A DNA stretch of 64,000 nt from Eledone cirrhosa (lineage: Eukaryota): assembly GCA_964016885.1 (NCBI GenBank), contig OZ024741.1, forward strand, positions 406,534,001 to 406,598,000, given 5' to 3'. Every line of letters starts with the position of its first letter. Position 1 is the first letter of the stretch. The notes under the pieces were generated by a model. That model was not told the origin of the DNA and did no database searches. It worked only from the letters and a program-made list of their open reading frames with translations. A program made the translations under genes and the position numbers. This document shows positions 8,321 through 60,531 of the stretch, piece after piece.

Positions 8321-9105
8321 TATATACCTCTACCTATATAATACTTCTATCTTTATTTATCGGCTTAGTTTCATTTGTTTCACTATCTTGGACATGATTT
8401 CTTAAATTAAACGTCTGGAACGAATTATAAGAACATTAGGCAGCATTGCCTAGCAACGAATACCTGGAATTTATCGATGACACCTGAAGCATAAGTCACA
8501 CGAAATACAAATATAAAGCTTGTATTTCTTCTCAAATATGTCTTATTCCTTGATTAGCTTCACAGTAAATGTATAAATGTTAGCAATGAGTTATTTAATT
8601 TGTTGATTATTCAACAAATTTAGTTTATAACAGATTAGAAGCACTCAACAATTTTCTTCTGGAGTATAATATCAATAATATTAATAAATGGAAGCTATCT
8701 TATATAAAACCATATTTATTTTATTATATATATTTCAAGGGTACCAACATTTTGGTACGCTCTCATCAGATAAAATACAAAAGTTGGTTTACAGATAGTG
8801 ACATATCCAGGTAAGAACTTAATGTTGTGAGTTCTATTTGGATAGTGTAATAGTTAAATGTATAAATGTATAAATTTATATATAACGACGTAGCAGTACC
8901 GCCGGTATGTATGGCTGTGTAAGTATCTCTGTACAGTTAAGAAGTTCGTTTTACATTTGATTCCACTGAGCAAAAACTGAGTAATTATTTTCTATCATAG
9001 ATGGACTCCATGTGTGTATAATGTCTGAAATGTTAAGACTCCTTTCCTATTATTTCAAGCGTTAAACTAACATATTTATTCATTGTACTGTGACATTTGC
9101 TTTTG

Positions 9106-9372: not shown

Positions 9373-9420
9373 TTAGTAGTAGCAGCAGCAGCAGCAGCAG
9401 TAGCGGCAATAGTAGTAGTA
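9107..9420. repeat. (CA)n-(TA)n-(GGT)n-(AGT)n-(AGC)n compound microsatellite
   Basis: Directly visible. Confidence 0.95.
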
Positions 9421-9495
9421 GGTCTGATATCATTGGTTTCTCACTAATTACAGTCACATTATATTTATTGAATAAAGGCGGAAATATTATGGAGT

Positions 9496-11205
9496 CTGTA
9501 GTGAAATGTGATCTGGTAGAGGTCTGTAGTGAAATGTGATCTGGTAGAGGTCTGTAGTGAAATGTGATCTGGTAGAGGTCTGTAGTGAAATGTGATCTGG
9601 TTGAGATCTGTAGTGAAATGTGATCTGGTAGAGGTCTGTAGTGAAATGTGATCTGGTTGAGATCTGTAGCGAAATGTGATCTGGTAGAGGTCTGTAGTGA
9701 AATGTGATCTGGTAGAGGTCTGTAGTGAAATGTGATCTGGTAGAGGTGTGTAGTGAAATGTGATCTGGTTGAGATCTGTAGTGAAATGTGATCTGGTAGA
9801 GGTCTGTAGTGAAATGTGATCTGGTAGAGGTCTGTAGTGAAATGTGATCTGGTTGAGATCTGTAGTGAAATGTGATCTGGTAGAGGTCTGTAGTGAAATG
9901 TGATCTGGTAGAGGTCTGTAGTGAAATGTGATCTGGTTGAGATCTGTAGTGAAATGTGATCTGGTAGACATCTGTAGTGAAATGTGATCTGGTAGAGGTC
10001 TGTAGTGAAATGTGATCTGGTAGAGGTATGTAGTGAAATGTGATCTGGTAGAGGTCTGTAGTGAAATGTGATCTGGTAGACATCTGTAGTGAAATGTGAT
10101 CTGGTAGAGGTCTGTAGTGAAATGTGATCTGGTAGAGGTCTGTAGTGAAATGTGATCTGGTAGAGGTCTGTAGTGAAATGTGATCTGGTAGACATCTGTA
10201 GTGAAATGTGATCTGGTAGAGGTATGTAGTGAAATGTGATCTGGTAGACATCTGTAGTGAAATGTGATCTAGTAGAGGTCTGTAGTGAAATGTGATCTGG
10301 TAGACATCTGTAGTGAAATGTGATCTGGTAGAGGTCTGTAGTGAAATGTGATCTGGTAGAGGTCTGTAGTGAAATGTGATCTGGTTGAGATCTGTAGTGA
10401 AATGTGATCTGCTAGAGGTCTGTAGTGAAATGTGATCTGGTAGACATCTGTAGTGAAATGTGATCTGGTTGAGATCTGTAGTGAAATGTGATCTGGTAGA
10501 GGTCTGTAGTGAAATGTGATCTGGTAGAGGTCTGTAGTGAAATGTGATCTGGTAGAGATCTGTTGTGAAATGTGATCTGGTAGAGGTCTGTAGTGAAATA
10601 TGATCTGGTAGAGATCCGTAGTGAAATGTGATCTGGTAGAGATCTGTTGTGAAATGTGATCTGGTAGAGATCTGTTGTGAAATATGATCTGGTAGAGATC
10701 CGTAGTGAAATGTGATCTGATAGACATCTGTTGTGAAATGTGATCTGGTAGTGATATGTTGTGAAATGTGATCTGGTAGAGATCCGTAGTGAAATGTGAT
10801 CTGGTAGAGATCTGTTGTGAAATGTGTTCTGGTAGAGATCTGTAGTCAAATGTGATCTGGTAGATATCTCTAGTGAAATGTGATCTGATAGACATCTGTT
10901 GTGAAATGTGATCTGGTAGACATATGTTGTGAAATGTGATCTGGTAGAGATCTGTAGTGAAATATGATCTGGTAGAGATCTGTAGTGAAATGTGATCTGG
11001 TAGATATCTGTAATGAAATGTGATCTGGTAGAGATCTGTAGTGAAATGTGATCTGGTAGAGATCTGTTGTGAAATGTGATCTGGTAGACATATGTTGTGA
11101 AATGAGATCTGGTAGAGATATGTAGTGAAATTTGATCTGGTAGAGATCTGTACTGAAATGTGATCTGGTAGAGATCTGTTGTGAAATGTGATCTGGCAGA
11201 GATGT
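9496..11205. repeat. 28-bp minisatellite CTGTAGTGAAATGTGATCTGGTAGAGGT, about 61 copies
   Basis: Period 28 (9496, 9524...). No unique spacers. Confidence 0.97.
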
Positions 11206-13393: not shown

Positions 13394-13427
<34 letters not shown>

Positions 13428-13431
<4 letters not shown>

Positions 13432-13771
13432 TATAAATTATGTCCTTAGAATCATTTGATAAGATATATACTCAATTTCCTTTCCCAATTAGCATAATCA
13501 ACCACACAAAAAAACAATTAAACCAGGCTATAAGATTAAAAGGCACCTGTGAAGAAATAATAGATAAATAAACGATAGCCATTTATTCGCGATCAACAGC
13601 CATAGAATATTTACCCATCATTTCAATAGCACGTGGAAATCGATTAAATATATCGTCAACCATACACAACTGGTTTAATTGTTTTTTTTTGTGTGGTTGA
13701 TTATGCTAATTGGGAGAGGAAATTGAGTATATATCTTATCAAATGATTCTTAGGACATAATTTATAGTATA
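13428..13771. repeat. Fold-back element: about 100-bp inverted arms (13428-13526 / 13671-13771) around a 145-bp spacer, flanked by (TA)n
   Basis: CTATAAATTATGTCCTTAGAATC...AAACCAG versus CTGGTTT...GATTCTAAGGACATAATTTATAG. Confidence 0.9.
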
Positions 13772-13871
13772 TTGCCCTGATTATTTAATTTATTAATTCA
13801 TCATTGAGCCACATCGTGAATGGTTGCCAAAAACATATCTATAACTCTGTCTAGTTTGTGTATATGTAAAT

Positions 13872-16079: not shown

Positions 16080-16395
16080 ACCTGTAACTCCTGAGAGAAT
16101 CGTAGGGGCGACATACTAAGGTAGGTTTTAAGTCTGGTAGAGCCCATCTCCGCTCCAGGTCTGAATAAAGCAGATTTCTTCCAGAGAGGGATAGAAAATG
16201 AGAGAGAGAAAGTGGGAAAAATATATAGAGGAAGAATCGATTCCTAGTCCTAGACTGGTACCTTTTTATCGATCTCGAAAGGATGAAGGGCAAAGTTGAT
16301 TTCAGCAGAATTTGAACTCAGAGATTAGAGAGCCGGAATGGAAACAGCAAAGCATTCTCTCTCACTTTCTAACGATTCTGCTAATTCGCCGCTCA
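16080..16395 (-). mobile_element. SINE subfamily with a long alternative 3' half
   Basis: Head shared with the dominant SINE. The distinct segment CCCAT..CTCCAGG.CTGAA.A.AGCAGA is also seen at 35760-36085 and 58765-59010. Confidence 0.7.
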
Positions 16396-17047
16396 ATTTG
16401 TCTAATGTGTGTATAGAACTGTAACTCCTGGTGCAGTCCTAAGGGCGCCTAAATTATAATTAGCACTATAAAATAAAGCAATCTAACTATTCTCCATGTT
16501 AATATATATTATATACCTACGAAGCGGCGAATTGGAAGAGTCGTTAGAACGCCGGATAGAATAATTTGCAGTTTTCATTTCGAATCTCTGCTCTCTTGGT
16601 TCAAATGTCACCGAAGTCAAATTTTGCCTTTCATCCTTTCGAGGTCAATAAAAGAAAGTACAACTCATGTACTGAGGTCGATTCTTCAGCCACGTGCCTA
16701 TGTAATCTACTTAATCAAGGTCGATTTAAGACCAACCAATAGCAACAACAATAAATATAGTTTTTCAAATCCATTATCAACAATTAGTTTTCAGGGAAGT
16801 TGGAATGTTTATTAGTTATTAACTTCTCGTTAAACCTTCAGTGATGTTATAGTTACGTCGCTATTTAACCTCAGCTCTCATCAAATAGATGTATGACTAA
16901 TGCTAGCTTAAATCTAACCACTTTTCTATCGATTCTTGTGTCCTCGCTTTAGGACATTTGGGTGTGATTTGAGGGAGATTTTGTTGCTATATTTAGTTGA
17001 TCGAGAAACCATGTGGTGTCTGCATAATTAGTCTTGTTGTTACACAT

Positions 17048-17415
17048 TCTTCTTCTGTTTCTTCTTCTTCTTCTTCTTCTTCTTCTTCTTCTTCTTCGCC
17101 CACTTATTCCTGCGAGAGTCGTGGGTACAGATTTCTCAAACACTCCTTCCAGCGAATCCTGTCAGAAGCAACCGTTTCCAACTGATCCGACTGGAACCCC
17201 AAGCGTGACTAGCCAAGCTCACAGATATTATTCAACCATCTTGCTCTGGGTCTCCTGCCAATTGGTTTTGCCCGTAAAATCTGTCCAGCGATTCTTTCCT
17301 GGGACATTCTAACCACATGTTAATAGTATCGGAGCTGTGATCTCTGAAATTCGGAGAAGTAGTAGCTCTACCTGGAATGACTCTCTCATCTACGCACTCT
17401 ATCAAGTAACGTTAC
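17048..17415 (-). mobile_element. RTE-clade LINE 3' fragment with (GAA)n tail
   Basis: Reverse complement of the family at 12415-12795. (CTT)n at 17048-17097 is the tail. Confidence 0.75.
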
Positions 17416-17743
17416 TCCAATATTACACCTATGACATGTAAATGGACAAAATGTTTTCCCATAAACTCCAAATTATCTGTATAATTACAGAAGTAAGCCA
17501 TGATGCTATGAAGATGTGATCTTTATAAAGTTAAGACTTCTTTTAAATGTATGTTAAATCAAAGGTTCTCAAACTTCTTAGGCCACCACGCTCTCTCCCG
17601 GAGGGTAATACCCACAGAACCCCCAACCCTATTTTCAGAGAGACCTGCCTAAACACAAATTGTAAATAATATATAATAAATAAAATCGTTAATTCATATA
17701 TAATCTAATATGTTTAGAAAGTGAACAACACAAGATATAACTA

Positions 17744-17811
17744 CTCCATTACCAAAGGTTTCAGGATCACAGGCGATAATAATATACGCCTGGATCGGTC
17801 ATCAGACAGAG
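17744..17811 (-). ncRNA. Type I hammerhead ribozyme motif
   Basis: Minus strand: CTCTGT-CTGATGA-CCGATCCAGGCG..CGCCTGTGATCCT-GAAA-CC TTT GG-TA-ATGGAG. Core intact and stems I, II and III all pair. Confidence 0.85.
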
Positions 17812-17869
17812 AAGTTATAGATAAAAGATATGATTTTAAATCTCATTTCATATTTTTTATCCATAACAT

Positions 17870-17937
17870 CTCTGTCTGACGACCGATCCAGACGTATATT
17901 ATTATCGTCTGTGATCCAGAAACCTTTGGTAATGGAG
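17870..17937 (+). ncRNA. Type I hammerhead ribozyme motif
   Basis: CTCTGT-CTGACGA-CCGATCCAGACG..CGTCTGTGATCCA-GAAA-CC TTT GG-TA-ATGGAG. Predicted cleavage after GUA at 17931. Confidence 0.85.
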
Positions 17938-18266
17938 TATTTATATTTTGTGTTGTTCACTTTCTAATTAAATAGCTCTGTTCTATACATAGAGCACTCG
18001 TTTTTCCTTTGCTTTTCCTTCGGAATTACCTAACATATAATCTAATATATTCTATGTATAAATAAATATTATATATTTTTTATGTTACTATATATATATT
18101 ATGTATCATTTGATATTTAATATACTATTATATCAAAGAAATAGGATTTCGCTTCTAGCATAGCTTTATACAATTTGTATAAATATTTCGTATCTCCAAA
18201 GAAATACGGTTTTAGGAAGCCGTAGCTAACGCCCTCTGGTGATGTCCAGCAGAAGCAAGGGGGACA

Positions 18267-18310
18267 ACCGTCTATGCATTTCAGGCTTAACTGGCCATCG
18301 TCAGGACGGC
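18267..18310 (-). ncRNA. Minimal type I hammerhead ribozyme motif
   Basis: Minus strand: GCCGTC-CTGACGA-T GGC CAGTTAA GCC T-GAAA-TGCA(palindromic loop III)-TA-GACGGT. Confidence 0.85.
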
Positions 18311-18504
18311 CCCTCCCACCGCTTTCGATTGCTGGACTAGAAAACAGGCGAGAATATATACTTTTCTCGTCTGTGTAAATGAGGTGATTAATCTCATTTG
18401 CATATGAAGCTGCATAAGTTGGATCAACTTATAATAAAAAAGAAATAGGACGAACCAACTTATGCAGCTGTCTTCTAGTCCAGCAGTCGCAAGCGGTGGG
18501 AGGG

Positions 18505-18548
18505 ACCGTCCTAACGATGGCCAGTTAAGCCTGAAATGCATAGACGGT
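18505..18548 (+). ncRNA. Minimal hammerhead motif with mutated core (CTAACGA)
   Basis: ACCGTC-CTAACGA-TGGCCAGTTAAGCCT-GAAA-TGCA-TA-GACGGT. The G5A change is expected to inactivate it. Confidence 0.7.
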
Positions 18549-19068
18549 TGTCCCCCTTGCTTCTGCTGGACATCACCAGAGGGCGTTAGCCCCCGGTGTT
18601 TGCATAGCTACGGCTTCCTAAAACTGTATTTCTTTGGAGATACGAAATATTTATACTATTATATCATCTCTACCACTACCCCCTGAACCTTCTCAACGCC
18701 CCTGGGTGGGACAGTAGTGCCCACTTTCAGAACCTCTCTGTTAAAGCCGTAACGTTGTAGGGACTGGCAGAATTAATGAAGTGTAGAACTTAGGCAATTT
18801 AGTTACGTCTTTTTCAGTTCTGGGTTCAAATCCAGACGAAGTTGAAGTTATGTTTTATCCTCCTGTGATCGATAAAATTTAGTATCAAGAGTTGACCAAC
18901 AGTCCTCTTCCAATAAATGTGTGACCACGTGACTGTCTTAGAAATCGATATATCTATAGACCTAAAGCTATACAAGATCATCGTTTATTAATAGTCACGA
19001 AGAATATATTGAAAAAAACAACATACTAGTAAATGTAATGACTTTTCTTTCCATCCTCCACCTCTCTT

Positions 19069-20037: not shown

Positions 20038-21839
20038 ATGTTTATTGATATCGTTAAAAACGAGGAAGCCATATTGCAAGCTAACTCCACGCCCACCAAA
20101 AAAAGCGAGAAAGAGGGAACAACAATTCAAACGGTTGAACTACTCCTCCTCTCGAATGGAAAAAACACTATTAATTTTAGTGAAAACCCAAATTTTGAAA
20201 AAGATAACAGGGAAAAAATACCACAAAAATGGAATTAATAAAACCAACAACATTGCAACAACAAACAACAATGAACGAAACGAAAACAACAAAGACAGCA
20301 AAATTTCTTTTGCCCAAACGGTAAAAAAAAACGATCGAATACAAACCCATAGACATTACTAACGCTAAGCAAAATTTACTAAATGCCAGAAAATACGTAT
20401 CTTTTGGGGAGGATGTTTCTTTTACGATCAACTCCCCAGAAGAAGTTCGTCAACAGGCATACAGGAATACTATAACTTTCAGGACTATATCCAACGCAAC
20501 AAGAAAGCCAGCTCAATTGACAGAAAGTCAAATTGAGCTGGTTCTGAAAGACATTAAAAAAGACATACTCTTTTTTGAAAGAGGAAAGCTTTATGCCAGC
20601 ATTATGGTCCGAATGAAGGACCAAATTCTGGCTCAAAAATGCTCGGTGGCACCTATAGTGTCACCACAATACACCTTCTTCCCCAAATATAAAGGAAGAA
20701 GAACACAAAGACTAAGAATGTGGAGCTCAACGCCAGAAGTAGACATCTGGTCCGTCCTGACAGGATTCACGGACCTAGAAAAGGACATTCTAATATCAGC
20801 AGGTGAGTCCACCACTGGACTGTTCGGGGGGGGGGGGGAAAGTCTGGAGGTTCTCATACAGATGACACCAGAGAGAATCGCCGGAATACCCGACCGAGTA
20901 CTACTGGATGGTCGAACCTTTATTAATATTACGGTGGAAGGCAGGAGGCCCTCATGTTACCACTGCGCTGGCAGAGGTCACCTGAGGACTGCCTGCCCTC
21001 TACTAACAACAAAAAACCACTGCTACAAACACCACAACAACAACAAAAACAACCAGCACCACCACCATATAAACAACAAAATACACCACCATTACCACCA
21101 CCACCACAACGACAACAAAAACCAACAACACCACCTCCAGCACCACCACCACAACAACAACAAAAACAAAAGAGCACGAAACAAATCAGTCACACCCACC
21201 CACCCCACACAGAAAACAATCAAAAATACAGACACCAACACAACACTACCACAAAATATCCCCCTACCCCCGAACACGAACGAATACCTCTTTACATCGG
21301 AGCATAGCGAAGATGAAGGAGAGCCGTTCCGACCAGTAAAAAGGAAAAAAAGGAAACATACCACTAACAGAAACCAAACAAACACAGAAGAAACCAACAC
21401 AAGACAAAGCACCCCTCCCCATTACACAACACTAACATCGTCACAGAAAAAAACATTACAGTACACTTACATCAACAAACAAAACAAAAAACTGCTCAAT
21501 ATAATAAACAGCAACCCTTCGGTGCAAACGGAAGAGCCAAATTTTAAGACAGTGGATGACTCTCCACACCTCAAAATGATAAAGGTCCTCATGAACCTTT
21601 ATCAAACTTTAAAAAACGTTTATAAAGAGGACGTAGGGCCCCCCTGTAACAAACCGTTTAACCGAGTCCTCTTAAAAAGTTACCCACCCCCCTCCTCAGA
21701 CACCCACACAACTCCAAATACACCAACCCCACCACACACTAATACCCCCACACCACCACAAACCACCACCCCACCCAACAACCCCTCCACCACCCCCATG
21801 GAAACTGAACAGCCCGAACCCCGGGACGCAGAGAGGTAA
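20038..21839 (+). pseudogene. ORF1 of copy B (gag-like zinc knuckle), frameshifted
   Basis: CYHCAGRGHLRTAC (CX2CX4HX4C) and a Pro/Thr-rich tail. ORF pieces lie in different frames, so the start is uncertain. Confidence 0.8.
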
Positions 21840-21862
21840 GTGCCTCTTTCTCTACCACCAAC

Positions 21863-24800
21863 ATGGCTGTGTTAAGAGTAGGTTGTCTAAATGCGCGTGG
21901 CTTGGGCTCACCTTGAAAGCAAGCTAAACTTCTAAATGACCTCAGGTCACGAGGTATAAATGTGATGGTCATTTGCGAGGCCCGGATCAGCAGCGTGCAA
22001 CAACTAGCCCCCACCTATGATGACTTTGAGATGCACGCATCTCTCTGTCAGCCCGTAGGTGGGGGTGGGGTTGTCGTTCTGCTGCCAAAACATCTGGGCC
22101 TCGCTACACAGACGGTACACTTGCACCCGGAGGGTCGACTAGTGGTTCTGGACCTTGGCAGTGGTGAAGGCGAAGCTTTGAGGCTTGTCGCCGTTTACGC
22201 CCCATCGTCTGGGGACTTTTCTAGGGACGTCCCGCTCCTTGCTTTTAGTGGGGGACTGGAATGGTATCCTAGATGCACGTTGGGACTATGTAGGGGCATG
22301 TCCCGATAGAGGAGGATGTAACAACCTCAAGGGGTTAATCGGCCGATTTGACCTGGCCGATAGATATCGACTAGATTTTCCGACTCTGCCAACCTGGACT
22401 TGGACAAACCATAGCGGTCAATCTAGATCGTACCTAGATAGGTTCTTAGTTAGAATTAAGGATATGGACCTTTTAAGTTATCCAGAAATGCTCATGGTGG
22501 ACTATTCAGACCACAAGTTAGTGATCTGCGTAGTCCACCTTGATAGAACGCATAGGCAGGGACCCGGTTACTGGAAGCTCAACTTGTCCTTACCGGCAAG
22601 TAGAGCTTACAGGGACCAGATTAGAACCTTAGTTAAGGAGCAGTTGACGGGCGCATTCGTCAACAGCAGGTGGTGGGGCTCTCTGAAAAAGAGATTAGAG
22701 TAGTTTCAATAGGAGTTAGTAAGGAGTTAGCCTCAGATAGAAATAGGAAGGAAAGGGAGTTGGTAGTTAATGTTGAAGAGGCTATGAGAAGCGGCAACGT
22801 GGCCAGAGTGCTAGCGTCGAGAACGGCCTTGAGCCAGTTCTTCGACGCGAAACACGAAGGCTGCGTTGTCCGAATCAAAATACGTGCTCTGGGAAACGAG
22901 AGGACCAAAGCTGTTAGCTGGGCCCACGTGACAGAAGCCAAAAGTGGGATTAGATCCACTATCCGGTCTTTGCGAGACCAGGATGGACGGGTGATCCTTG
23001 AACCTAAGAAAATGTGCGAGGCCTTTCAAAGGCACTTTGCCCTATTGTTCGGGAGAGGCGGGGGGCCGGTTGGAGATGTGGATTTCGGTCCATACCTCGA
23101 CGGCCTGCCGCGTCTTTCATCTCAGCTGCTGAAATAGAGGACGTGCTGAGCCTATGCGGCAAACGCAAATCTCCAGGCCTCGATGGTCTACCCTACGAAC
23201 TATATATTAATATGCCGAACTTGTTCCCCAATCTCCTCGAGGCGGTCTACTTCAACTGGCAACAGAACGGGAGAATTGCCTGTTCCGTGAGCAAGGGCGT
23301 AGTCTCAATAGTGAGGAAGGACGAGAACAAAGGGGATGACATTAGTAATTTTAGGCCCATAACTCTGCTAACTGCAGAGTTAAAGATTTTGACCAAGGTG
23401 TTAGCGAAGAGGTTGGCGCTTGTCGTGGGGGGGCTGGTGGGAGATGCGCAGACATGCGCTATCCCGTCCAGGTCCATCCACGACAAGCTCCACCTCATGC
23501 GATACATCATAGAGAGGGATGGGAACGAACCCGGCTTTGGTGGGGCCCTGATAAATTTAGATCAGTCTAAAGCTTTCGATAGGATGGACCATGGTTACCT
23601 GGATGCGGTGCTAGCGGCGGCTGGTTTCGGACCCGTTTTCAGGGGCTGGATCACTGCCATGCACAGTAGCCGCATCTGCTCTAGAGTCAAGGTGAACGGC
23701 TACCTCTCGGAGCCGTTCGAAATCACCCGCTCCATCCGACAGGGGTGCCCTCTCTCATCCCTTCTGTACCTATTGGCTCTCGAGCCACTACTGCGGAAGT
23801 TGGAGTTGTTGCAGGGCATCCATTTGGAACCGGGATTGTACAAAGCGGTGTCGGCCTACGCCGATGACGTAACAGTAATGGTGTCGACCACCGCGGAAAT
23901 CGAGGCAATCGGCACCTTACTGGAGGAGTACGAAAGGTTGACAGGGGCTAAGCTGAACCGGGACAAGTCAGTCGCTTTGCAACTCGGCGAGTTGAGGGGC
24001 AAACCGATGTCGTCCGTCGGTATCGTCGGACGGTGGACGGAGGGCCCGGTGAAGTTGCTTGGGTCTGGTTCGGACCGGACCTCTAGGTGGAGAAAAACTG
24101 GGGTGAGGTGACGAATAGGGTGCTTGCACTGACCCAGAAGTGAGCCAAGTGCAAACTATCCCTGAAAGGTCGGGCGGAGGTGGCGAACGCTTACATAGCG
24201 TCCGTAATCTATTACCGCTTGACTGTCGTGCCTTGCCCCGGTGAGATCCTCGCCAAAATGGAGCGTGCTCTCTTTCACTTCCTTTGGAAGAAGAGGTCTC
24301 CCCTGGTGAGGAGATCCATCTTCTGTCAACACCCTTTGAAAGGAGGGCTGGGGATGCCGTGGCTAAAAATACGTTAACACGCATTGAGGCTACGGCACCT
24401 CCAGGTATTCCTCACTGGTCAACCGGTGTGGGCCCCGTTTGTGAGGCGAGCCTTCCCGAGGCTCGTCTCGTTCACCGAGCTACAGTCCTGGGTGAAGCAA
24501 AGACCGAGAAAACTGGGCGACTGGCACACCGAGTGTGCCCAGGCGCTCACGGCTCTCTGGCTGGCGGACCCGGCTACCGGTGGAGACTCCACCTCGTCAT
24601 TCTATAGTGGGCTGGTGGTTAGCAGGTGCGACGACACACTCGGAGAAACCCTGGGCATGGAGGAGGACGAACTGGCCAGCCTATTCGGTAGGACTTTCGG
24701 CCCGGGACCTATGGACAACTTCCAGAATTCCTTGGCCTGGCAGTGCTACCGAAGAGCTCTGCCCGTTCGGGATAAGCTCTGCAGACACGGGCGCCCGGGT

Positions 24801-25238
24801 AGGGATCCCTCGAAAAAGATCTGTCCCAGATGCGTGCGCGACGACGAAACCGTCGCGCACGCATTGGTACACTGCCCGGGCGTTACCGAACTGTGGGGCT
24901 ATGTCGAACAACTGCTGTCACGGGTGGGACCAATTAGGTTGACCACCGAGTCCATTGTAACGATAAAGGCACCTCCCCCCTTCAAAAATGAAGGAGAGGC
25001 GGTCTTCCTCTGTGTAATATCCATGATAAAAGAGTTTGTATGGTGGACGCATCTAAAAGGGCTGAGGTCGGACACCTTTCTTTCCGGCCAACAACTGGTC
25101 CTTTTCTTCTGATACCATTTCGGAAGAAGGATCAGGAGGGAGAGAGAGGTGCTCCACCCCAGCCAGTTTTATGAAAGGTGGGTGAAAGTTGCGAGAATGG
25201 CCCGTGTGAATGGGCCTTCTCTCTACCTCAGCCTGTAG
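21863..25238 (+). pseudogene. ORF2 of copy B: AP endonuclease + reverse transcriptase + C-terminal Zn finger, with stops and frameshifts
   Basis: GDWN, YLDRFL, YSDH, GPGYWKLN (APE); KSPGLDGLP, FRPITLL, LDQSKAFDR, RQGCPLS, YADD (RT); CPRC..ET..HAL.HCP. Confidence 0.95.
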
Positions 25239-25475
25239 GTGGAAAAGTATGAAGGAAGAAGGGAGCCCCTCTCTTTGTGCTCCCGTGGAGAAGGGTCGCA
25301 ATTTTTTTTTTTTGGGGGGGGGGGGGTGACCCCAAAACGATCCCTCCCTATTGAGGACCTTTTTGTTATAATTTTATTTGTTATTACATTTTTTTACTCG
25401 ATTTCTATGTAAGCCCCCCCCACCCCCCATATATGTGCTCCTTTCTTTTGTGCCCTCGTGGAAAATAAACAGAAA

Positions 25476-25507
<32 letters not shown>

Positions 25508-25508
25508 G

Positions 25509-26420
25509 CAATTCGAATGTGCTCAGGCACTCACGGTCCTCTGGCAAACGGACCCGGCGATCAGTGGAGACTCCACTTCGTCATTCTATAAAGGGTTGGT
25601 CCGCAGCAAGTGCGACGACACGCTCGGAGAAACTCTAGGCGTAGAGGAGGACGAACTGGCCAGTCTGTTCGGTAGGACAGTCCCTGGCCTGGCAGTGCTA
25701 CCGAGGAGCTCTACCAGTTCGAGACAAGCTCTACAGACACTGGCGCCCGGCTAGGGACCCTTCGAAAAAGATCTGTCCGAGATGCGTTCGCGACGAGGAA
25801 CCGTCGCGCGCGCATTTGTACACTGCCCGGGCGTTACCGACCTGTGGGGCTATGTAGAACAACTATTGTCGCGGGTGGGACCAATCCGGTTGACCACCGA
25901 GTCCATTGTCATGATCAAACCGCCACCCTCCTTCAAAAACAAGGGAGAGGCCGTTTTCCTGTGTGTTATGGCTATGGTGAAAGAGGTTATATGGTGGACG
26001 AGGTTAAAAGGGCTGAGGTCAGACACCTTTCTCTCCGGCGAGCAAGTGATTCGTTTTTTCAAATATCATTTTGGAAGAAAAATCAAGATGGAGAGAGAGG
26101 TGCTGTACCCCAACAAATTTTATAAAAGGTGAGTGAATGTGGCAAAGATGGCCCGAGTGGTTGGGCCTTCTCTCTATATAAGCCTGTAGGTTGGGGAAAA
26201 AGAGGAAGAGAGGAAGGGAGTACTCACTCTTGGTGCTACTGGAGATGAGGGTTGTACATTTTTTCGGGGTGTGTACAACCCCTGTGTAACACCTCCCCCC
26301 TATTGGGGATTTCAATTGTTATTTGTTATTGTATTAATAGTTTTATTTTCATATACCTATATGTAAACTCCCCATTTGTATTTGTCTCCTTCTTTTGTGC
26401 CCTTGTGGCTAATAAAGAAA
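25509..26420 (+). mobile_element. Tx1-clade LINE copy C (5'-truncated, diverged subfamily)
   Basis: Homologous to the last about 0.7 kb of ORF2 plus 3' UTR. Flanked by (TCTG/TCTA)n. Confidence 0.9.
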
Positions 26421-26650
26421 TTTATCTGTTTATCTGTCTGTCTATCTGTCGACGGAGGTAGACGTGTATTAACGAGCTCTGTGTTTTACATTGGTTTTAC
26501 CTTGTAAAGAGTGAGCTTTTGGATTATTTTTCTATTGTAATGTAGTTTAACCCCTCGTTTGGGCCTGCAGACGTTGGGGTTATTATTGTTTTCACCCCTT
26601 TTTCGGGTGAAAGTTTTCATGTTGCATTTTTGTGAACTCGGCTTGTAGTA

Positions 26651-28340
26651 ATGGACGGCATTAATACAAGTCATAGTGCCACCCTCCCCAAAGAAAAAAA
26701 AATCTTCGAGGAAAATTGAAAGCACAAAGTGCCCAGCTTCCCCCTGTTCTTTTAACGAAAAACGTTAATAAGGAACAACAGTCAACAACCGAAAAGACAC
26801 AAATTGGAAATAATACCAGCAACGGAAAAATTATCGATACCAATACGAACACCAAACTGAACAGCGACAACAACAACAATAACAAGAAAGACGACAACAA
26901 AATTTCCTTTGCGGAAACTGTAAAAAAAACACAAGTGTTCCTACCTTTGGATTTAACCAACGCAAAGCAAAAGTTGGAAGAAGCAAAAAGCTATGTGACT
27001 TTCGAACCCGATTGTTCATTCAGCGTTAATTCCCCAGAAGAAATAAAAAGAGAAATTGCCACGAGCACGGTGGTGTTCAGGACAATCTCGAATGCTACAA
27101 AAAAACCAGTACAACCGTCTCAGAGTGAGATAGAGCTGGTTTTAAGGAACCAAATGGAAAACATTTTGTTCATTCAAAAAGAAAAACTCTTCGGTAGCAT
27201 CTCGGTGCTTATGAAGGATCAAGAAACGGCGCAAAAACATTCCATTGCTCCCATTGTATCCACCCACTTCACCTTTTTCCCGTCTTACACGGGAAGGTCT
27301 CAAAGAATAAAATTCCACTGCATAAGACCCAAATTAGACACTTGGTGGCTACTTTGTGGCGTTTTAGACCTTGACCAAGACATTATAATCTCGGTTGGAA
27401 AGTCCTCCAGAGAGGTCTTTAGTGGGACCAGCGTAGAACTTCTGGTGCAGATGATCCCAGAAAGAATAGCGAGGATCCCACAGAGAATTCATTTAGAGGG
27501 AGAGACCTACATAAACATTTCGGTTGAGGGGAGGCGACCCGCGTGTTACCACTGCGCAAGCAGGGGTCACCTGAGGGTTGCATGCCCTCAACTGATAAAA
27601 AAGAAACCTTTATTACAAACACCACAAACAATAACACCACCACAACCACCACAACAACATCAACAACAACAGCTCAAGAAAAAAACCCCAAACACGGTCC
27701 CACCCAGCCCCTCCCCACAGAACACAAATACAAAAACACACGCAGTGCAAACACAACCTGGCAATATACCCCTCCCCTCCAATACAGAAGAGGAGCTCAT
27801 ATCCTCGGAAGACGAGGGGGCTCCCTTCCAAAAAGTCAAAAGAAAAAAGCGTACACACACCACACAAACAAAAATAACCCCACCTGAGAACACCACACCG
27901 ACAACAAAACGCAAGCTCACTCAAGAACAACAAACAAAAACAAACTCAACAACACAAAAACTCTACACATACAAAAACAAAAACAATAAAAACTTAGCAG
28001 ACAAAATAAACAATAACCCTTCGGTACAAACCGAAGGGCCGAATTTTACAATGGCAACGGGACTCCCTAACCTGAAAATGGTGAAGGTCCCACTTGACAT
28101 TTTTAAAACATTGAAAAACATTTACCCTGGGGACGTGGGGCCACCTTGCACCTGGCCACTCAACCGCGTCCTCCTGAAAGGTTTTCCCCTCCCCTCCTCA
28201 AACACCCACACAATTCCAAACACCCCAACCCCTCACACACTAATACCCCCACACCACCACAAACCACCACCCCACCCAACAACCCCTCCACCACCCCCAT
28301 GGAAACTGAAGAGCCCGGACCCCGGGACGCAGAGAGGTAA
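26651..28340 (+). pseudogene. ORF1 of copy D (zinc knuckle), frameshifted near both ends
   Basis: CYHCASRGHLRVAC. The native end METEEPGPRDAER* matches copy B. Confidence 0.85.
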
Positions 28341-28363
28341 GTGCCTCTTTCTTTATCACCAAC

Positions 28364-31300
28364 ATGGCTGTGTGAAGAGTAGCTTGTCTAAATGCGCGTG
28401 GCCTGGGCTCACCTTGGAAGCAAGCTAAACTTCTAAATGACCTCAGGTCACGATGTATAAATGTGATGGTTATTTGCGAGGCCCGGATCAGCAGCGTGCG
28501 ACAGCTAACCCCCACCTTTGATGACTTTGAGATGCACGCATCTCTCTGTCAGCCCGGAGGTGGGAGTCGGGTTGTCGTTCTGCTGCAAAAACATCTGGGT
28601 CTCGCTACTCAGACGGTACACTTGGACCCGGAGGGTCGACTAGTGGTTCTGGACCTTGGCAGTGGTGAAGGCGAAGATTTTAGGCCGTTTTTTGGGCAAT
28701 GCTGTCGAACTTCTTCCATCGTCTGGAGACTTTTCTAGGGACGTCCCGCTCCTTGCTTTTAGTGGGGGACTGGAATGGTATCCTAGATGCACGTTGGGAC
28801 TATGTAGGGGCATATCCCGATAGAGGGGGGTGTAACAACCTCAAGGGGTTAATCGGCCGATTTGACCTGGCCGATAGATATCGACTAGATTTTCCGACTC
28901 TGCCAACCTGAACTTGGGCAAACCATAGCGGTCAATCTAGATCGTACCTAGATAGGTTCTTAGTTAGGATTAAGGATAGGGATATTTTAAGTTGTCCAGA
29001 AATGCTCATGGCGGGCTATTCAGACCACAAGTTAGTGACCTGCATAGTCCACCTTGAAAGAACGCATAGGCAGGGACCCGGTGACTGGAAGCTCAACTTG
29101 TCCTTACCGGCAAGTAGAGCTTACAGGGACCGGATTAGAACCTTAGTTAAGGAGCAGTTGACGGGCGCCATCGTCAACAGCAGGTGGTGGGGCTCTCTGA
29201 AAAGAGAGATTAGAGTAGTTTCAATAGGAGTTAGTAAAGAATTACCTCAGATAGAAATAGGAAGGAAAGGGAGTTGGTAGTTAATGTTGAAGAGGCAATG
29301 AGAAGCGGCAATGTGGCCAGAGTGCAAGCGTCGAGAACGGCCTTGAGCCAGTTCTTCGACGCGAAACGCGAAGGCTGCGTTGTCCGAAACAAAATACGTG
29401 CTCTGGAAAACGAGGGGACCAAAGCTGTTAGCTGGGCCCACGTGACAGAAGCCAAAAGTGGGATTAGAACCACTATCCGGTCTTTGCGAGACCAGGATGG
29501 ACGGGTGATCCTTGAACCTAAGAAAATGTGCGAGGCCTTTCAAAGGTACTTTGCCCGATTGTTCGGGAGGGGCGGGGGGCCGGTTGGGGATGGGGATTTC
29601 GGTCCATACCTCGACGGCCTGCCGCGTCTTTGGGACGAGGAGGCGAGGTCCTGCGACGGGCCGATCTCAGCTGCTGAAATAGGGGACGTGCTAAGCCTAT
29701 GCGGCGAACGCAAATCTCCAGGCCTCGATGGTCTACCCTACTAACTATATATTAATATGCCGGACTTGTTCCCCGATCTCCTCGAGGTGGTCTACTGCAA
29801 CTGGCAACAGAACGGGAGAATTCCCTGTTCTGTGACCAAGGGTGTAGTCTCGCTAGTGGGGAAGGACGAGAACAAGAGGGATGGCATTAGTAATTTTAGG
29901 CCCATAACTCTGCTAAATGCAGAGTTAAAGATTTTGGCCAAGGTGTTAGCGAAGAGGTTGGCGCTTGTCGTGGGAGGCCTGGTGGGAGATGCGCAGACAT
30001 GCACTATCCCGTCCAGGTCCATCCACGACAAGCTCCACCTCATGCGATACATCATAGAGAGGGTTGGCAACGAACCCGGCTTTGGTGGGGCCCTGATAAA
30101 TTTAGATCAGTCTAAAGCTTTCGATAGGGTGGACCATGGTTACCTGGATGCGGTGCTAGCGGCGGCTGGTTTCGGACTCGTTTTCAGGGGCTGGATCACT
30201 GCCATGCACAGCAGCCGCATCTGCTCTAGAGTTAAGGTGAACGGCTACTTCTCGGAGCCGTTCGAAATCACCCGCTCCATCCGACAGGGGTGCCCTCTCA
30301 CCTCCCTTCTGTATGTATTGGCTCTCGAGCCACTACTGCGGAAGTTGGAGTTGTTGCAGGGCATCCCTTTGGAACCGGGATTGCGCAAAGCGGTGTCGGC
30401 CTATGTCGATGACGTAACAGTAATGGTGTCGACTACCGCGGAAATCGGGGCAATCGGCACCTTACTGGAGGAGTACGAAAGGTTGACAGGGGCTAAGCTG
30501 AACCGGGACAAGTCAGTCACTTTGCAACTCGGAGAGTGGAGGGGCAAACCGATGTCGTCCGACGGTATCGTCGGACGGTGGACGGAGGGCCCGGTGAAGT
30601 TGCTTGGGGTCTGGTTCGGACCGGACCTCCAGGTGGAGAAAAACTGGGCTGAGATGACGAATAGGGTGTTTGCACTGACCCAGAAATGGGCCGAGTGCAA
30701 ACTATCCCTGAAAGGTCGGGCGGAGGTGGCGAACGCTTACATAGCATCCGTCATCTATTACCGCTTGACTGTCGTGCCTTGCCCCGGTGAGATCCTCGCC
30801 AAAATGGAGCGCGCTCTCTTTCACTTCCTTTGGAAGAAGAGGTCTCCCCTGGTGAGGAGATCCATCTGCTGTCAACACCCTTTGAACGGAGGGCTGGGGA
30901 TGCCGTGGCTAAAAATACGTTAACACGCATTGAGGCTACGGCACCTCCAGGTATTCCTCACCGGTCAACCGGTGTGGGCCCCGTTTGTGAGGCGAGCCTT
31001 CCCGAGGCTCGTCTCGCTCACCGAGCTACAGTCCTGGATGAAGCAAAGACCGAGAAAACTGGGCGACTGGCACACCGAGTGTTCCCAGGCGCTCACGGCT
31101 GTCTGGCAGGCGGACCCGGCTATCGGTGGAGACTACACCTCGTCATTCTATAGAGGGCTGGTAGTTAGCAGGTGCGACGACACACTCGGAGAAACCCTAG
31201 GCATGGAGGAGGACGAACTGGCCAGCCTATTCGGTAGGACTTTCGGCCCGGGACCTATGGACAATTTCCAGAAGTCCTTGGCCTGGCAGTTCTACCGAGG

Positions 31301-31783
31301 GGCTCTTCCCGACGGGATAAGCTCTACACACACGGGCGCCCGGGTAGGGATCCCTCGAAAAAGATCTGTCCCAGATGCGTGCGCGACGAGGAAACCGGCT
31401 TGCATGCATTGGTGCACTGCCCGGGCGTTGCCGATCTGTGGGGCTATGTCGAACAACTGTTGTCACGGGTGGGACCAATTAGGTTGACCACCGAGTCCAT
31501 TGTAACGATAAAGGCACCTCCCCCCTTCAAAAATGAAGAAGAGGCGGTCTTTCTCTGTGTAATAGCCATGATAAAAGTGGTTGTATGGTGGGCGCGTCTA
31601 AAAGGGTTGAGGTCGGACACCTTTCTTTCCGGCCAACAACTGGTTCTTTTCTTCTGATACCATTTCGGAAGAAGGATCAGGATGGAGAGAGAGGTGCTCC
31701 ACCCCAGCCAGTTTTATAAAAGGTGGGTGAAAGTTGCGAGAATGGCCCGTGTGAATGGGCCTTCTCTCTACCTCAGCCTGTAG
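28364..31783 (+). pseudogene. ORF2 of copy D (APE-RT-Zn finger), disrupted
   Basis: Same motifs as copy B. RT motif reads YVDD and there are multiple stops. Confidence 0.95.
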
Positions 31784-38787: not shown

Positions 38788-41700
38788 CTACAGACGTATA
38801 TTCAGAGTGGTCCCGTTCACTTGGACCATTCTCGCTACATTCACCCACCTTTCAACAAACTTGCTAGAAGGCAGCACTTGCCTCTCCACCCTGATTTTCC
38901 TCTTCAAGTGAAACTTTAAAAAGTTAATTAGGGATTCGCCGAAGAGGAAAGTGTCTGTCTTTAACCCTTTCAACCTTGTCCACCACACAATCTCTTTCGC
39001 CATGGGCACCAGGCAGATGAAAACCGCCTGCCCATCCTCCTCGAAGGAAGACTCGAGACCATCTGCACAATGGACTCAGTCGATAACCGGATTAGTCCTA
39101 CACGCGACAGCAACTGTTCGACATAGCTCCACAAGTCAGTAATGCTCGGGCACTGAACGAGTGCGTGCACGGCGGTTTCGTCGCTCTGCGCGCATCTCCG
39201 ACAGGCTCGGCTGACGGCACTTCCGTGCCTGTAGAGCTTATCTCGAACCAGCAGCACTGCCAGGCCAGGGATTTTTGGAAGTTATCCATAGGCTCTGGGC
39301 TCAAAGTTCTCCGGAAGAGAGCAAACAGCTGATCTTCCTCGACACCCAGGATCTCTCCGAGAACGTCGTCGCTCTTCCCCTCCACTAGTCCTCTATAGAA
39401 CGCCGAGGTGGATGTTCCACCGATACTGGTGTCCAGTTGGCAGAAGGCAGTGAGCACCTGGAGACATTCCAGCTTCCAAGCGCTATCCCTCGGTCTTTTC
39501 CTGACCCAGGACTGCAGCTCCGTCAAGGAGACGAGCTGTGGGAAAACGTGCCTGGCGAACGGCAACCACACCTGTTCACCGCCAAGAAAGCACCAGAGAT
39601 GTCGCAGCCTCAGCGCATGTTTGCACATCATCAGCCATGGCATGCTCAGTCCTCCACGCAACGGGTGTTGACAGCAGATGGATCGTTTGACCATGGGAGC
39701 AAGTCCCTTCCACAAAAAGCGGAAGAGAAGGCGCTCCATTTTGGGGAGAGTTGGGCCGGGAAAAAGGACGTCGGTCAGGCGGTAGCAGATGACGGATGCG
39801 ATGTACGCATTCGCCACCTCCGCCCGGCCTTTCAGAGACAGCTTCCTCTCGGCCCATTTCTGAGTGAGAGAAGCCACCCTGCTCATCACCTCGCTCCAGT
39901 TTTTCTCCATCTGGAGGTCCTGTCCGAACCAGACCCCGAGCAATTTAACCGGTCCGTCCGTCCAACGCCCCACGACGCTGTCGGACGGCATGGACTTGCC
40001 TCTCCAGGTGCCGAGCTGCAAGCCTACCGACTTTTCCTGGTTCATGTTTGCTCCTGTCACCGCTTCGTATTCATTGAGAGCGGTGCCGAGCATCTGGATG
40101 TTTCTGGTGCTCGACACCACCACGGTGACGTCGTCGGCGTAACCCGACTCGGATTTCCCGCATCCTAGTTCGCGTGGGACGCCCCTCGTCGCCCCCAGTT
40201 TGTGCAGTAACGGCTTGAGAGCCAATACGTACAAGAGGGACGAGAGGGGACAACCTTGGCGGACCAAGCGCATGATGCTGAATGGCTGCGACAGGTGACC
40301 GTTCACCTTCATAACTGAGCAGATGTCGCTGTACATCGCAGCGATCCAACCCCTGAAAACGGGCCTGAAACCGGCTGCCTCGAGGACCGCCGCCAGGACC
40401 CTATCGAATGCTTTGGATTGATCCAAGTTGATCAGAGCCCCACCCGTGCCAGGTTCCTTAACCACCCTCTCTATGATGTATCGCATGAGGTGGAGGTTGT
40501 CGTTTATGGATCTGTCCGGAATGGCGCATATCTGCGCCTCTCCCACCAGATCACCGACGACAAGTGCCAATCTTTTGCTAACATTTGGCCAAAAACTTGA
40601 ACTTTGCGTTTAGCAGTTATGGGCCTGAAATTATCAATAACATCCCCCTTTTTCGGGTCTTTTCTCAGCAGCGCCACCGCTCCCCGGCTCACAAAACTGG
40701 GAATGCTCCGGTTCTGCTGCCATAGCAGTAGACGTCTGCCAAGAGGTCACCGAACAAGTCTGGCATAAATGCATAAAGCTTGTAGGGCAGACCATCCAAA
40801 CCTGGTGATTTACCCCTCGTGCAGTTAGCCATCGCTTCCCGTATTTCACCGGCTGTTATTGGCTTTTCGCAACACTGTGCTGCGGTCGTCGAGAGCCGAG
40901 GCAGTCCGTCGAGGTATGCACTGAAGTCCATGCCCCGATCCGGCCCGCCGCTGCTCCCGAACATTTAATCGAAGTGCTGCTGAAAAGCTTCACACATCTG
41001 CTCGGGTTCGAGCAACACGCACCCGTTTTGGTCAGATAAAGACCGAATTGTGGCTATGTTGCCACGTCGCGCCTCTGCCACCCGAGCCCATTGGACGGCT
41101 TTTGTCCTTTCATGTTTCAGAGCACGCGCTCTAGCTCTGACAACGCAGCCTTCGTGTTTTGCGTTGAAGAATTGGTCGAGTGCCAATCTCGCCGCAAGCA
41201 CGGCGGTTGCGATGCCTGTCCTAAACGCCTCTTCTAGCTTTCTGACTAGCTCTCCCTCTACTCTATTTTCCTCTATCACTAATCCTTTGCTAAACCTAAT
41301 CGACTCTACTTTAATAGCCCTTTTCAGGGCAAACCACCACCTGTTGTTAACGACCGCTCCCGTCAACGGCCGCTGAACTAATACGTTAAACCGGTCTTTG
41401 TAGGCTTTGCGCACCGGGAAAGACGCGTTCAGCTTCCAGTAACCGGGTCCTTGTCTATGAAGTCTGTCTATGTTGATCTCACAAATTTGTGGTCTGTGTA
41501 GTCGACTATTTTAAATTGTGGACAACTTATACTAGCCTTATCTAGTTCCCTGCAGAATACCCTATCGAGATACGATCTGGATGACCCGATGCGGTTTGTC
41601 CATGAGACCACATTGGCACATTCGGGTGATCCAGTCGATACCTGTCAGACAGTTCAAAACGTCTGAGCAGGTTGGTAAGGCTCTTGCACCCTCCTCCCCT

Positions 41701-42171
41701 ATCCACTAGCTCCACACAATCCCAGCGTGCATCCAAGATACCGTTCCAGTCGCCCACTAACACTAAAGAGCGGGACGTTCCAAGAAAGGTCTCTAGACGT
41801 CTGAAGAAATCTGGCCGTCCTGTCCCTGTCGGGGCATAGACGGTTACTAGCCTGAAAGCGTTGCCTTCGGTGCCGCTTAAGTCCAGCACCACCGACTTAC
41901 CTTCTGGGTCCAGGAAGATGGTCCGTATGGCGAGACACAAGCCTTTCCGAAACAACACAGCCACTCCGCCTCCCGCTCCCGGACGGCTCGGAGATGCGTA
42001 CACCTCGTAACTGTCGAAGATCGGTGCGAAAGCTTGCGCTTCGGAGATTCTTGTCTCGCTGATGGCCACCACATCTATGTTTAGTAACCTGAGGTCGTTA
42101 AGCAAGTGACTCTGCTTCCAAACCCAGCTCAAGCCACGCACGTTTACACTTCCGATTCTGAATACGGCCAT
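38788..42171 (-). pseudogene. ORF2 of copy E (APE-RT-Zn finger), frameshifted
   Basis: MAVFRIGSVNVRGL, ISETR, GDWN, KSPGLDGLP, LDQSKAFDR, RQGCPLS, YADD, CRRC..ET..HALVQCP. Confidence 0.95.
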
Positions 42172-42203
42172 GTTGAGTGAAGAACGGGGCAAGTGAGAAA
42201 GGA

Positions 42204-44026: not shown

Positions 44027-44254
44027 TTTTTTTACGGTTTAAAATGAATATTGGGCACAAATCCCCAATAACTGGTTATTTAACCCCGAAGGGTCATATA
44101 ACTGGCAGAAAGACCCCTCTCACGAGGAGGAGGGTGTCTTTATCTACAATTTGGCTCAAGTTTAAAACAATTTACAATTGTTATAACGGTTAAAACTTAC
44201 AATACCTTACAGAGCCGAGCCTCCGTCAACCTTGGCATTCAATAATAATAATAA

Positions 44255-44430: not shown

Positions 44431-44443
44431 AATAATAATAATG

Positions 44444-49763: not shown

Positions 49764-49764
49764 T

Positions 49765-60353: not shown

Positions 60354-60460
<107 letters not shown>

Positions 60461-60463
60461 TAC

Positions 60464-60528: not shown

Positions 60529-60531
60529 CAC

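What the first reader, a model, noticed from the sequence alone, without database searches (positions are those of the whole stretch)
17712..18666. Miniature fold-back retroelements carrying back-to-back hammerhead ribozymes, each with a 14-15 bp TSD
Seen: two unrelated 0.3-0.5 kb non-coding insertions 100 bp apart. Each is an inverted repeat with a minus-strand hammerhead in the left arm and a plus-strand hammerhead in the right arm, and each is bounded by an AT-rich direct repeat (ATATAATCTAATAT; TATACTATTATATCA). Established: Penelope-like elements (PLEs) carry minimal type I hammerheads in their pseudo-LTRs and often form inverted 5' repeats, whereas retrozymes carry hammerheads in direct repeats. 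Inference: these are ORF-less PLE derivatives in which transcription from either side yields a self-cleaving hairpin RNA. That would be an inverted 'ribozyme-MITE' architecture acting as a bidirectional transcript cleaver or dsRNA source.
Basis: partly seen in the sequence, partly recalled or inferred. Interest (0 to 1): 0.85.

Follow-up and report, generated by a model that had tools for sequence, protein, structure and literature searches.

The report
Penelope-type fold-back insertions with hammerheads
Two short hairpin-shaped DNA insertions, each with a pair of self-cutting-RNA motifs, sit inside an older repeat; they are likely ordinary by-products of how Penelope-like jumping genes integrate, although one is likely a whole 0.3-kb non-coding passenger element (retrozyme-like) left with that same integration signature.

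Summary
The anatomy is real: two head-to-head inverted insertions (E1 17712-18034, E2 18136-18651) with type I hammerhead folds on both arms and true 14/15-bp target duplications. Corrections: E2's plus-strand core has G5A; both elements are lopsided (tail on one side only); both sit in an AT-rich patch of an older high-copy repeat whose other copies show the empty sites. This is the published insertion pattern of Penelope-like elements (inverted copy, one-sided tail, TSD), and opposite-strand hammerhead pairs 100-700 bp apart were reported in 2014. The 'ribozyme-MITE' reading fails: read-through RNA is computed to bury the hammerhead in the fold-back (65-89 kcal/mol), and reads from other copies almost never share E2's turn. 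One addition: E2's long arm is one whole ~304(+18)-nt non-coding unit with 12-nt terminal redundancy, and other copies show the head-to-tail junction, so it is retrozyme-like yet carries a Penelope footprint. That bears on which machinery moves animal retrozymes, but rests on one locus, with no RNA or autonomous partner seen. The scan noted the same fold-back pattern before in other genomes. Verdict: new members of a known kind.

The parts
17560..18738 (.). Older host repeat, about 311 bp once E1, E2 and one copy of each TSD are subtracted; short imperfect terminal inverted repeats and an 8-bp flanking near-repeat (TGTTAAAT/TGTTAAAG), MITE-like (hAT label recalled, untested)
   Evidence: Ends compared (12 of 16 matches); read depth rises from about 0-6 to tens of thousands from bin 17552-17589 on, in organisms A and B
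17698..17711 (.). E1 left target-site duplication (14 bp)
   Evidence: holds the locus-private C (17705) also seen at 18042, where other copies read A in 20,752 of 20,929 depth units in X1
17712..18034 (.). E1: head-to-head inverted insertion, 323 bp
17714..17833 (-). E1 short arm with type I hammerhead (core CUGAUGA from 17805, long stem II, 3-bp stem III with UUU loop, site after 17750)
17848..17967 (+). E1 long arm with type I hammerhead (core CUGACGA from 17876, site after 17931); outer stem I decayed
   Evidence: 17940 T where other copies read G in 66,713 of 77,768 depth units
17968..18034 (+). E1 one-sided 67-bp tail
18035..18048 (.). E1 right target-site duplication
   Evidence: joints skipping E1 in other host-repeat copies, e.g. 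17704 to 18037 and 17704 to 18043
18121..18135 (.). E2 left target-site duplication (15 bp)
   Evidence: loose ends behind 18135 read TCTCTACC..., the window's sequence from 18667, in 130, 135 and 148 contigs and 452 reads
18136..18450 (-). E2 long arm: one whole non-coding unit (304-nt period, about 322 with the 18 nt kept in the other arm) plus 11-12 nt terminal redundancy
   Evidence: TCCTATTTCTTT at 18450-18439 and 18146-18135; joint 18438 back to 18135 and loose end at 18450 in other copies
18136..18181 (-). E2 one-sided tail (41 bp, or 46 bp if the 5-nt TATAC shared with the TSD is counted)
18266..18311 (-). E2 type I hammerhead, core CUGACGA from 18304, U.U then 3-bp stem II, palindromic AUGCAU stem III, site after 18273
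   Evidence: most other copies have A10.1-U11.1 (18297 reads T on + in 34,405 of 42,738 depth units in X1)
18451..18651 (+). E2 short arm: 5'-truncated copy with a 62-nt internal deletion; hammerhead fold 18504-18549 with G5A at 18513
18652..18666 (.). E2 right target-site duplication

Best explanation
E1 and E2 are two unrelated head-to-head inverted insertions, each with a one-sided tail and a 14-15-bp target duplication, nested in an older repeat, and were likely written by Penelope-like (PLE) retrotransposition, so that the hairpin and its paired hammerheads are likely a by-product of integration and not a self-copying unit. Inferred mechanism: a PLE endonuclease/reverse transcriptase nicks AT-rich DNA on both strands 14-15 bp apart, and each nick primes cDNA synthesis on element RNA at one of two nearby start sites. 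That gives two arms pointing outward, one longer by the tail; the 5' ends of the cDNAs are joined in the middle. The hammerhead lies 35-130 nt from those start sites, so both arms carry it. E1 looks like a heavily 5'-truncated end. E2's long arm is likely one complete non-autonomous unit of about 0.3 kb (retrozyme-like mini-PLE) copied from a tandem or circular RNA slightly past one round. The copies here have since decayed. Read-through RNA is predicted to form a long hairpin with the ribozyme masked; only a transcript starting at the turn could fold one, and E2's palindromic stem III would need a partner RNA.
For: Geometry matches the published pattern: inverted 5'-truncated copy, tail at one end, TSD, head-to-head junction (PMC8557442 passages; PMC3846280 passages). 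Two RT start sites and AT-rich nicking on both strands were shown in vitro for a lizard PLE (PMC11167929); the target here is 9.9% GC. Dual minimal hammerheads 100-700 bp apart on opposite strands were already attributed to truncated PLEs (PMC4209133). TSDs are real: empty sites in paralogous host copies, and a locus-private base in both E1 TSD copies. Both families are multi-copy (9,709 contigs laid in X1). E1 contig depth falls from about 129,000 (17932-17969) to 2,400 (17818-17855) toward the turn. E2's turn is crossed by almost no raw reads, and 3 of 24 listed long pieces stop at 18448-18450. Unit reading of E2: 12-nt terminal redundancy; joint 18438 to 18135 in 2 + 2 contigs (one sample) and 14 reads from 9 starts; 19 contigs continue past 18450 with tail sequence; depth stays high from 18136 to 18425 apart from one dip; 41% GC, circular fold z = -4.4 against 60 shuffles. 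Masking.
Against: No PLE ORF sharing these ends was seen (no genome held; none among the window's ORFs of 120 aa or more by eye), so the PLE link rests on geometry and ribozyme type. E1's tail (67 bp) and both TSDs are longer than the 30-40 bp and 8-10 bp in the passages read. Only 15 of 213 joints and 40 of 282 variant rows were shown, so turn points were not counted. Contig depth is no copy number, and the fall toward E1's centre may partly reflect sequence divergence. The tandem junction of E2 is a minority (14 reads against 325 with unrelated flank at the tail end), and no dimer with two hammerheads was seen. The exact locus is not spanned in any run laid.
Confidence: 0.8

Rival explanations
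1. One reading: the fold-back itself is a mobile 'ribozyme-MITE' that cleaves transcripts from either side.
For: Long inverted arms with hammerhead folds on both and a TSD; a third hammerhead-bearing fold-back lies at 60022-61917; most joints were not shown.
Against: Ends are asymmetric; E2's plus core is G5A; read-through folding masks the ribozyme by 65-89 kcal/mol; raw-read depth 337, 104, 1.3 across E2's turn; other turn or skip points at 17750/17766 (61 reads, 1 start), 17762 to 17918 (2 contigs, organism B) and 18297/18332 (1 contig). Only 3 of 10 fold-backs examined in the window carry a hammerhead pair, and those three share no sequence.
Confidence: 0.06
2. PLE-type insertions, but E2 is merely the 5'-truncated pseudo-LTR of an autonomous 3-4 kb PLE, not a short non-autonomous unit.
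For: Most reads at the tail end run into unrelated flanks (325 reads at 18129), and contig depth drops about tenfold at 18426-18463; most loose ends were not shown.
Against: Upstream of the arm's 5' end other copies carry the tail sequence, not a reading frame (joint 18438 to 18135; 19 contigs at 18450); the window copy itself is terminally redundant by 12 nt and has no long ORF.
Confidence: 0.2
3. The inversions arose without PLE enzymes: LINE-type twin priming, two copies inserting side by side in opposite orientation, or later inverted duplication.
For: A tRNA-derived SINE-like repeat in this window also forms head-to-head pairs (49761-50114, 16231-16687), so fold-backs here are not confined to hammerhead elements.
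Against: One TSD encloses both arms in each element; both arms end at the element's 3' side, offset by a tail, which twin priming on one RNA does not give (established knowledge); both E2 arms share the minority base at 18297/18518.
Confidence: 0.08

Closest known systems
Complex insertions of endonuclease-positive Penelope-like elements (inverted pseudo-LTR plus tail; Arkhipova et al. 2013 PMC3846280, Craig et al. 2021 PMC8557442)
   Same: Head-to-head inverted arms, tail on one end only, TSD, AT-rich target, hammerhead near the 3' end
   Different: No ORF left; TSDs 14-15 bp against 8-10 bp in the passages read; E1's tail is 67 bp
Dual minimal hammerheads on opposite strands in Schistosoma (Cervera and de la Pena 2014, PMC4209133)
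   Same: Two type I hammerheads 100-700 bp apart on opposite strands, no ORF, palindromic or short helix III
   Different: No G10.1-C11.1 pair in these copies; U.U at that place is a known natural variant (PMC3088659, PMC7229834 passages); E1 has a much longer helix II
Metazoan non-LTR retrozymes (Cervera and de la Pena 2020, PMC7229834; Li et al. 2026, 10.64898/2026.07.22.740005)
   Same: E2: 0.3-kb non-coding unit, one type I hammerhead, GC under 50%, long TSD, head-to-tail junction in some copies, more-than-unit-length copy
   Different: Here inverted with a tail, not a tandem array; no two-hammerhead dimer, circular RNA or cleavage shown
Non-autonomous PLEs such as MRC1 of Chlamydomonas (PMC8557442 passage)
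   Same: Short ORF-less PLE derivatives with head-to-tail insertions
   Different: Those belong to the Chlamys clade, which mostly lacks canonical hammerheads

Membership tests
EN+ Penelope-like element insertion | Inverted 5'-truncated copy adjoining head-to-head | tested here: met
   sense strands point outward from the turn in both elements
EN+ Penelope-like element insertion | Tail (about 30-40 bp) at one end only | tested here: met
   One-sided in both; lengths 41-46 and 67 bp, the second longer than described
EN+ Penelope-like element insertion | Target-site duplication at an AT-rich site | tested here: met
   14 and 15 bp, 0 of 2000 shuffles, target 9.9% GC; empty sites in paralogous host copies
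EN+ Penelope-like element insertion | Type I hammerhead with short or palindromic helix III near the 3' end | tested here: met
   3 of 4 cores intact, 1 with G5A; Rfam models do not detect them
EN+ Penelope-like element insertion | Autonomous copy with RT and GIY-YIG ORF sharing these ends | not testable with these tools
   No genome held; two metagenome pattern scans empty
Non-LTR retrozyme (E2) | Non-coding monomer of 150-450 bp with one type I hammerhead and GC under 50% | tested here: met
   304-nt period, 41% GC, no long ORF
Non-LTR retrozyme (E2) | Head-to-tail tandem copies (dimer or more) | tested here: inconclusive
   Junction seen in 2 + 2 contigs, 14 reads from 9 starts and 19 loose ends; no piece with two hammerheads listed
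Non-LTR retrozyme (E2) | Canonical loop 1-loop 2 tertiary contacts | not tested
   Not assessed; mussel retrozymes lack most of them (PMC7229834 passage)
Non-LTR retrozyme (E2) | Self-cleavage and monomeric circular RNA in tissue | not testable with these tools
   Needs bench work or RNA reads
MITE-like mobile fold-back ('ribozyme-MITE') | Inverted repeats at both termini | tested here: not met
   One end of each element is a non-repeated tail
MITE-like mobile fold-back ('ribozyme-MITE') | Same turn and ends recur at other loci | tested here: inconclusive
   Leans against: raw-read depth 1.3 beyond E2's turn, other turn points listed; 198 joints not shown; E1's turn poorly sampled
MITE-like mobile fold-back ('ribozyme-MITE') | Hammerhead can fold in a read-through transcript | tested here: not met
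   Computed penalty 65-89 kcal/mol, 72-83 in nascent RNA; equilibrium models only

The most novel reading that the evidence does not exclude
E2 is a non-LTR retrozyme caught in the act: a more-than-unit-length copy of a ~320-nt circular hammerhead RNA, integrated with the inverted arm, one-sided tail and long TSD peculiar to Penelope enzymes. Its family would then give direct insertion-footprint evidence, in an invertebrate-type genome, that PLE proteins mobilise animal retrozymes, and the tail ends would map the RT start sites on the circle.
Probability: 0.4. Interest if true: 0.5.

Novelty: new member of a known kind. Interest (0 to 1): 0.27.

Why it matters
As fold-back PLE debris it matters little, beyond warning that such hairpins are easily misread as MITEs, miRNA precursors or bidirectional ribozymes. 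The E2 family is more useful. Papers read here propose PLEs as the movers of animal retrozymes from co-occurrence and phylogeny (PMC7229834, PMC7761336, Li et al. 2026), and say that the repeats show no motif naming the partner. A retrozyme-sized unit with the PLE integration footprint makes that question testable from genome sequence alone.

Tried and rejected
Whole genome: not held, so no genome-wide BLAST. Rfam: no hammerhead hit; the miRNA hits are generic hairpin matches far below gathering scores. No second copy of either family in the window. Pattern scans of metagenome contigs: 0 matches for each family. Sequencing runs: no RNA holder listed. Pile-ups of molecule ends in run X6 at 17661/17665, 17966/17969 and 18027 first looked like element ends; they fall on AATT words and are taken as restriction sites of the RAD library, so not used (17714 mirrors 17967; 18403 was also set aside as a likely enzyme site). 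The joint 17731/17954 was set aside as an effect of the reference's own inverted repeat. No terminal redundancy in E1 (longest word shared by tail and centre, 6 nt). Sequence look-ups in earlier findings: none. Lunse et al. 2017 is not held; seen only as cited in reviews. A paper search with 'cephalopod' rested on a recalled, untested resemblance of the window's SINE-like repeat and gave nothing on these elements.

Full report
1. Observation. The sequence and repeat search show two fold-backs. E1 (17712-18034) has arms 17714-17833 and 17848-17967, 111 of 120 complementary, then 67 bp found on the right only. E2 (18136-18651) has arms in three registers that differ by a 62-nt deletion on the right and an 18-nt deletion on the left, and 41-46 bp found on the left only. 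The 14- and 15-bp flanking repeats are as stated; 0 of 2000 local shuffles reached them. A type I hammerhead descriptor gave 6 hits in the window, 3 in the finding (C3 at 17805 -, 17876 +, 18304 -), against 1 hit in 40 shuffled windows. I wrote the descriptor after seeing the motifs, and it tolerates up to two mismatches at the base of stem II. The fourth copy (18511 +) appears only with a relaxed core: it has G5A, which breaks the consensus core (PMC3088659 passages; loss of activity is recalled knowledge). None of the four pairs 10.1 with 11.1; U.U there is a known natural variant. Rfam does not detect them.

2. Surroundings. No genome is held. I laid 4 of the 8 runs listed on 17400-18535 at 85% likeness: X1 and X3 (contigs, one sample, organism A), X5 (contigs, organism B), X6 (RAD reads, organism A). 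Only the best-supported rows are shown: 15 of 213 joints, 40 of 282 variant rows, 24 loose ends with 1609 hidden, 24 pieces with 23,339 hidden. No piece spans the locus. The flanks and the spacer are themselves a high-copy repeat, abundant in both organisms, which begins near 17560 and ends near 18738 with short imperfect inverted ends. Its other copies show the empty sites. For E2, loose ends behind 18135 continue with the window's sequence from 18667 in 130, 135 and 148 contigs and 452 reads. For E1, joints skip from 17700-17704 to 18037-18045. At 18042 other copies read A (20,752 of 20,929 depth units in X1), whereas both E1 repeats hold C, so the 14 bp were duplicated from this very locus. 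These are paralogous, not orthologous, empty sites. In organism B the host repeat is abundant while the hammerhead parts of E1 and E2 are scarce at this likeness, which fits later insertion. The shared target is 9.9% GC, which likely explains why the two lie 101 bp apart.

3. Is the fold-back the unit? Both families are multi-copy (9,709 contigs laid in X1; depth is no copy number). For E1, contig depth falls from about 129,000 (17932-17969) to 70,000, 16,000 and 2,400 toward the turn; raw reads fall from 592 to 79. Divergence may add to this, and the RAD reads barely reach E1's turn. For E2, raw-read depth is 337 at 18388-18425, 104 at 18426-18463 and 1.3 at 18464-18501; 3 of the 24 listed pieces stop at 18448-18450. 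Other turn or skip points appear at 17750/17766 (61 reads, 1 start), 17762 to 17918 (2 contigs, organism B) and 18297/18332 (1 contig). This leans against a recurring unit without being a census. Of 13 inverted matches listed I examined the 10 contiguous fold-backs (3 distant pairs dropped); 3 of 10 carry a hammerhead pair, they share no sequence, and only E1 and E2 have a flanking repeat above 8 bp.

4. Can it cleave read-through RNA? Single arms can fold stems I and II: probability 0.75 for E2 left, 0.64 for E2 right, 0.08 for E1 left, under 0.001 for E1 right. In whole-element RNA the same fold costs 65-89 kcal/mol, and 72-83 kcal/mol at the moment the sense hammerhead is complete, because the complementary arm is always made first. 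These are equilibrium models; kinetics were not simulated. Stem III of E2 is a 6-nt palindrome, the type reported to need a dimer and to cleave weakly (PMC4209133); a lizard PLE hammerhead needed protein (PMC11167929). The copies are decayed: at four left-arm positions of E2 listed the family majority matches the right arm, and E1's right arm has lost outer stem I pairs. A long hairpin would form if the locus were read through; no expression data bear on it.

5. What E2 is. Its long arm begins and ends with the same 12 nt, 304 nt apart. Other copies show the matching head-to-tail joint 18438 to 18135 (2 contigs each in X1 and X3, 14 reads from 9 starts in X6), and 19 contigs in X3 run on past 18450 with tail sequence. 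Depth is high along the whole unit apart from a dip at 18312-18349, unlike E1's gradient. The 18 nt missing from this arm are in the family (loose ends at 18225 and 18228), giving about 322 nt. Most copies have A10.1-U11.1 (34,405 of 42,738 in X1; 183 of 233 reads in X6), so the family's stem II is a canonical 4 bp. The unit is 41% GC, has no long ORF, and folds as a circle at -85.9 kcal/mol, z = -4.4 against 60 shuffles. Against: the junction is a minority (325 reads leave the tail end into unrelated flanks) and no two-hammerhead dimer was seen. I put the short non-autonomous unit reading at about 0.65. E1 shows no such redundancy.

6. Mechanism. Shown: anatomy, TSDs, nesting, multi-copy families, junction reads. 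Computed: masking. Inferred: PLE protein nicks both strands of AT-rich DNA, primes two cDNAs at two nearby start sites, and their 5' ends join head-to-head; for E2 the template was a tandem or circular RNA read slightly past one round. Nicking of both strands, AT preference and two start sites bounding the tail were shown in vitro for one PLE (PMC11167929). Arkhipova et al. instead discuss self-priming on an antisense template for the inverted junction (PMC3846280); my data do not separate the two.

7. What is known. Inverted copy, one-sided 30-40-bp tail and TSD: PMC8557442 (passages), PMC3846280 (passages), PMC8969392 (passages). Dual hammerheads 100-700 bp apart on opposite strands: PMC4209133 (parts 1-2 of 4). 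Retrozyme features and PLEs as candidate movers: PMC7229834 (passages, sections 13 and 17), PMC7761336 (passages), Li et al. 2026 (part 1 of 5 and passages), PMC6765202 (passages). PMC11167929: parts 1-2 of 4. PMC6962438: passages, not informative. I found no paper showing a retrozyme monomer with the PLE footprint in five searches; 'inverted' occurs 0 times in PMC7229834 and once, in the reference list, in each of Li et al. and PMC7761336. The library is partial, Repbase and Dfam were not searched, no supplements were read, and Lunse et al. 2017 was not held; any of these may already hold such a case. Six earlier notes of this scan describe the same fold-back pattern in other genomes; they are unchecked and came after my reading was formed.

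8. Verdict. Observation partly confirmed; interpretation partly supported; new members of a known kind; interest 0.27. The retrozyme-with-PLE-footprint reading has probability about 0.4 and would merit about 0.5.

Noticed in passing
window 60022-61917: A 1.9-kb fold-back whose unique parts are identical between arms apart from a 10-bp indel; it has a third hammerhead family back-to-back near the turn (C3 60923 -, 61017 +; U.U then 3-bp stem II, AGUACU stem III), a long (TA)n tract in each arm and no TSD found. Very young insertion with captured DNA, or an assembly artefact.
   Followed up: partly
window 8717-8777 (-): A solo type I hammerhead fold (C3 8769, palindromic stem III), unrelated to the others.
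   Followed up: no
window 17773/17789 versus 17908/17892: The two E1 arms differ by a compensatory pair in stem II (G-C against A-U), which hints that the arms were copied from two different RNA templates; chance or palindrome-templated change is not excluded.
   Followed up: no
window 49761-50114 and 16231-16687: Head-to-head pairs of the window's abundant SINE-like repeat, without hammerheads.
   Followed up: no
window 13426-13772, 57193-57815, 58568-58681, 59353-59438, 63093-63222: Five more fold-backs with no convincing hammerhead or TSD; the last two are related to each other, and 58553-58606 is a tRNA-like fragment.
   Followed up: partly
run X6, joint 17750/17766: Another E1-family copy turns at the predicted cleavage position 17750 (61 reads, a single start, so one locus at most).
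   Followed up: no
window 20325-31657 and 39098-46654: Several broken non-LTR retrotransposon copies with gag-like, endonuclease-like and RT-like frames, judged by eye from the ORF list; not searched against any library.
   Followed up: no
window about 9400-11200: Long minisatellite array, seen as repeated translations in the ORF list.
   Followed up: no
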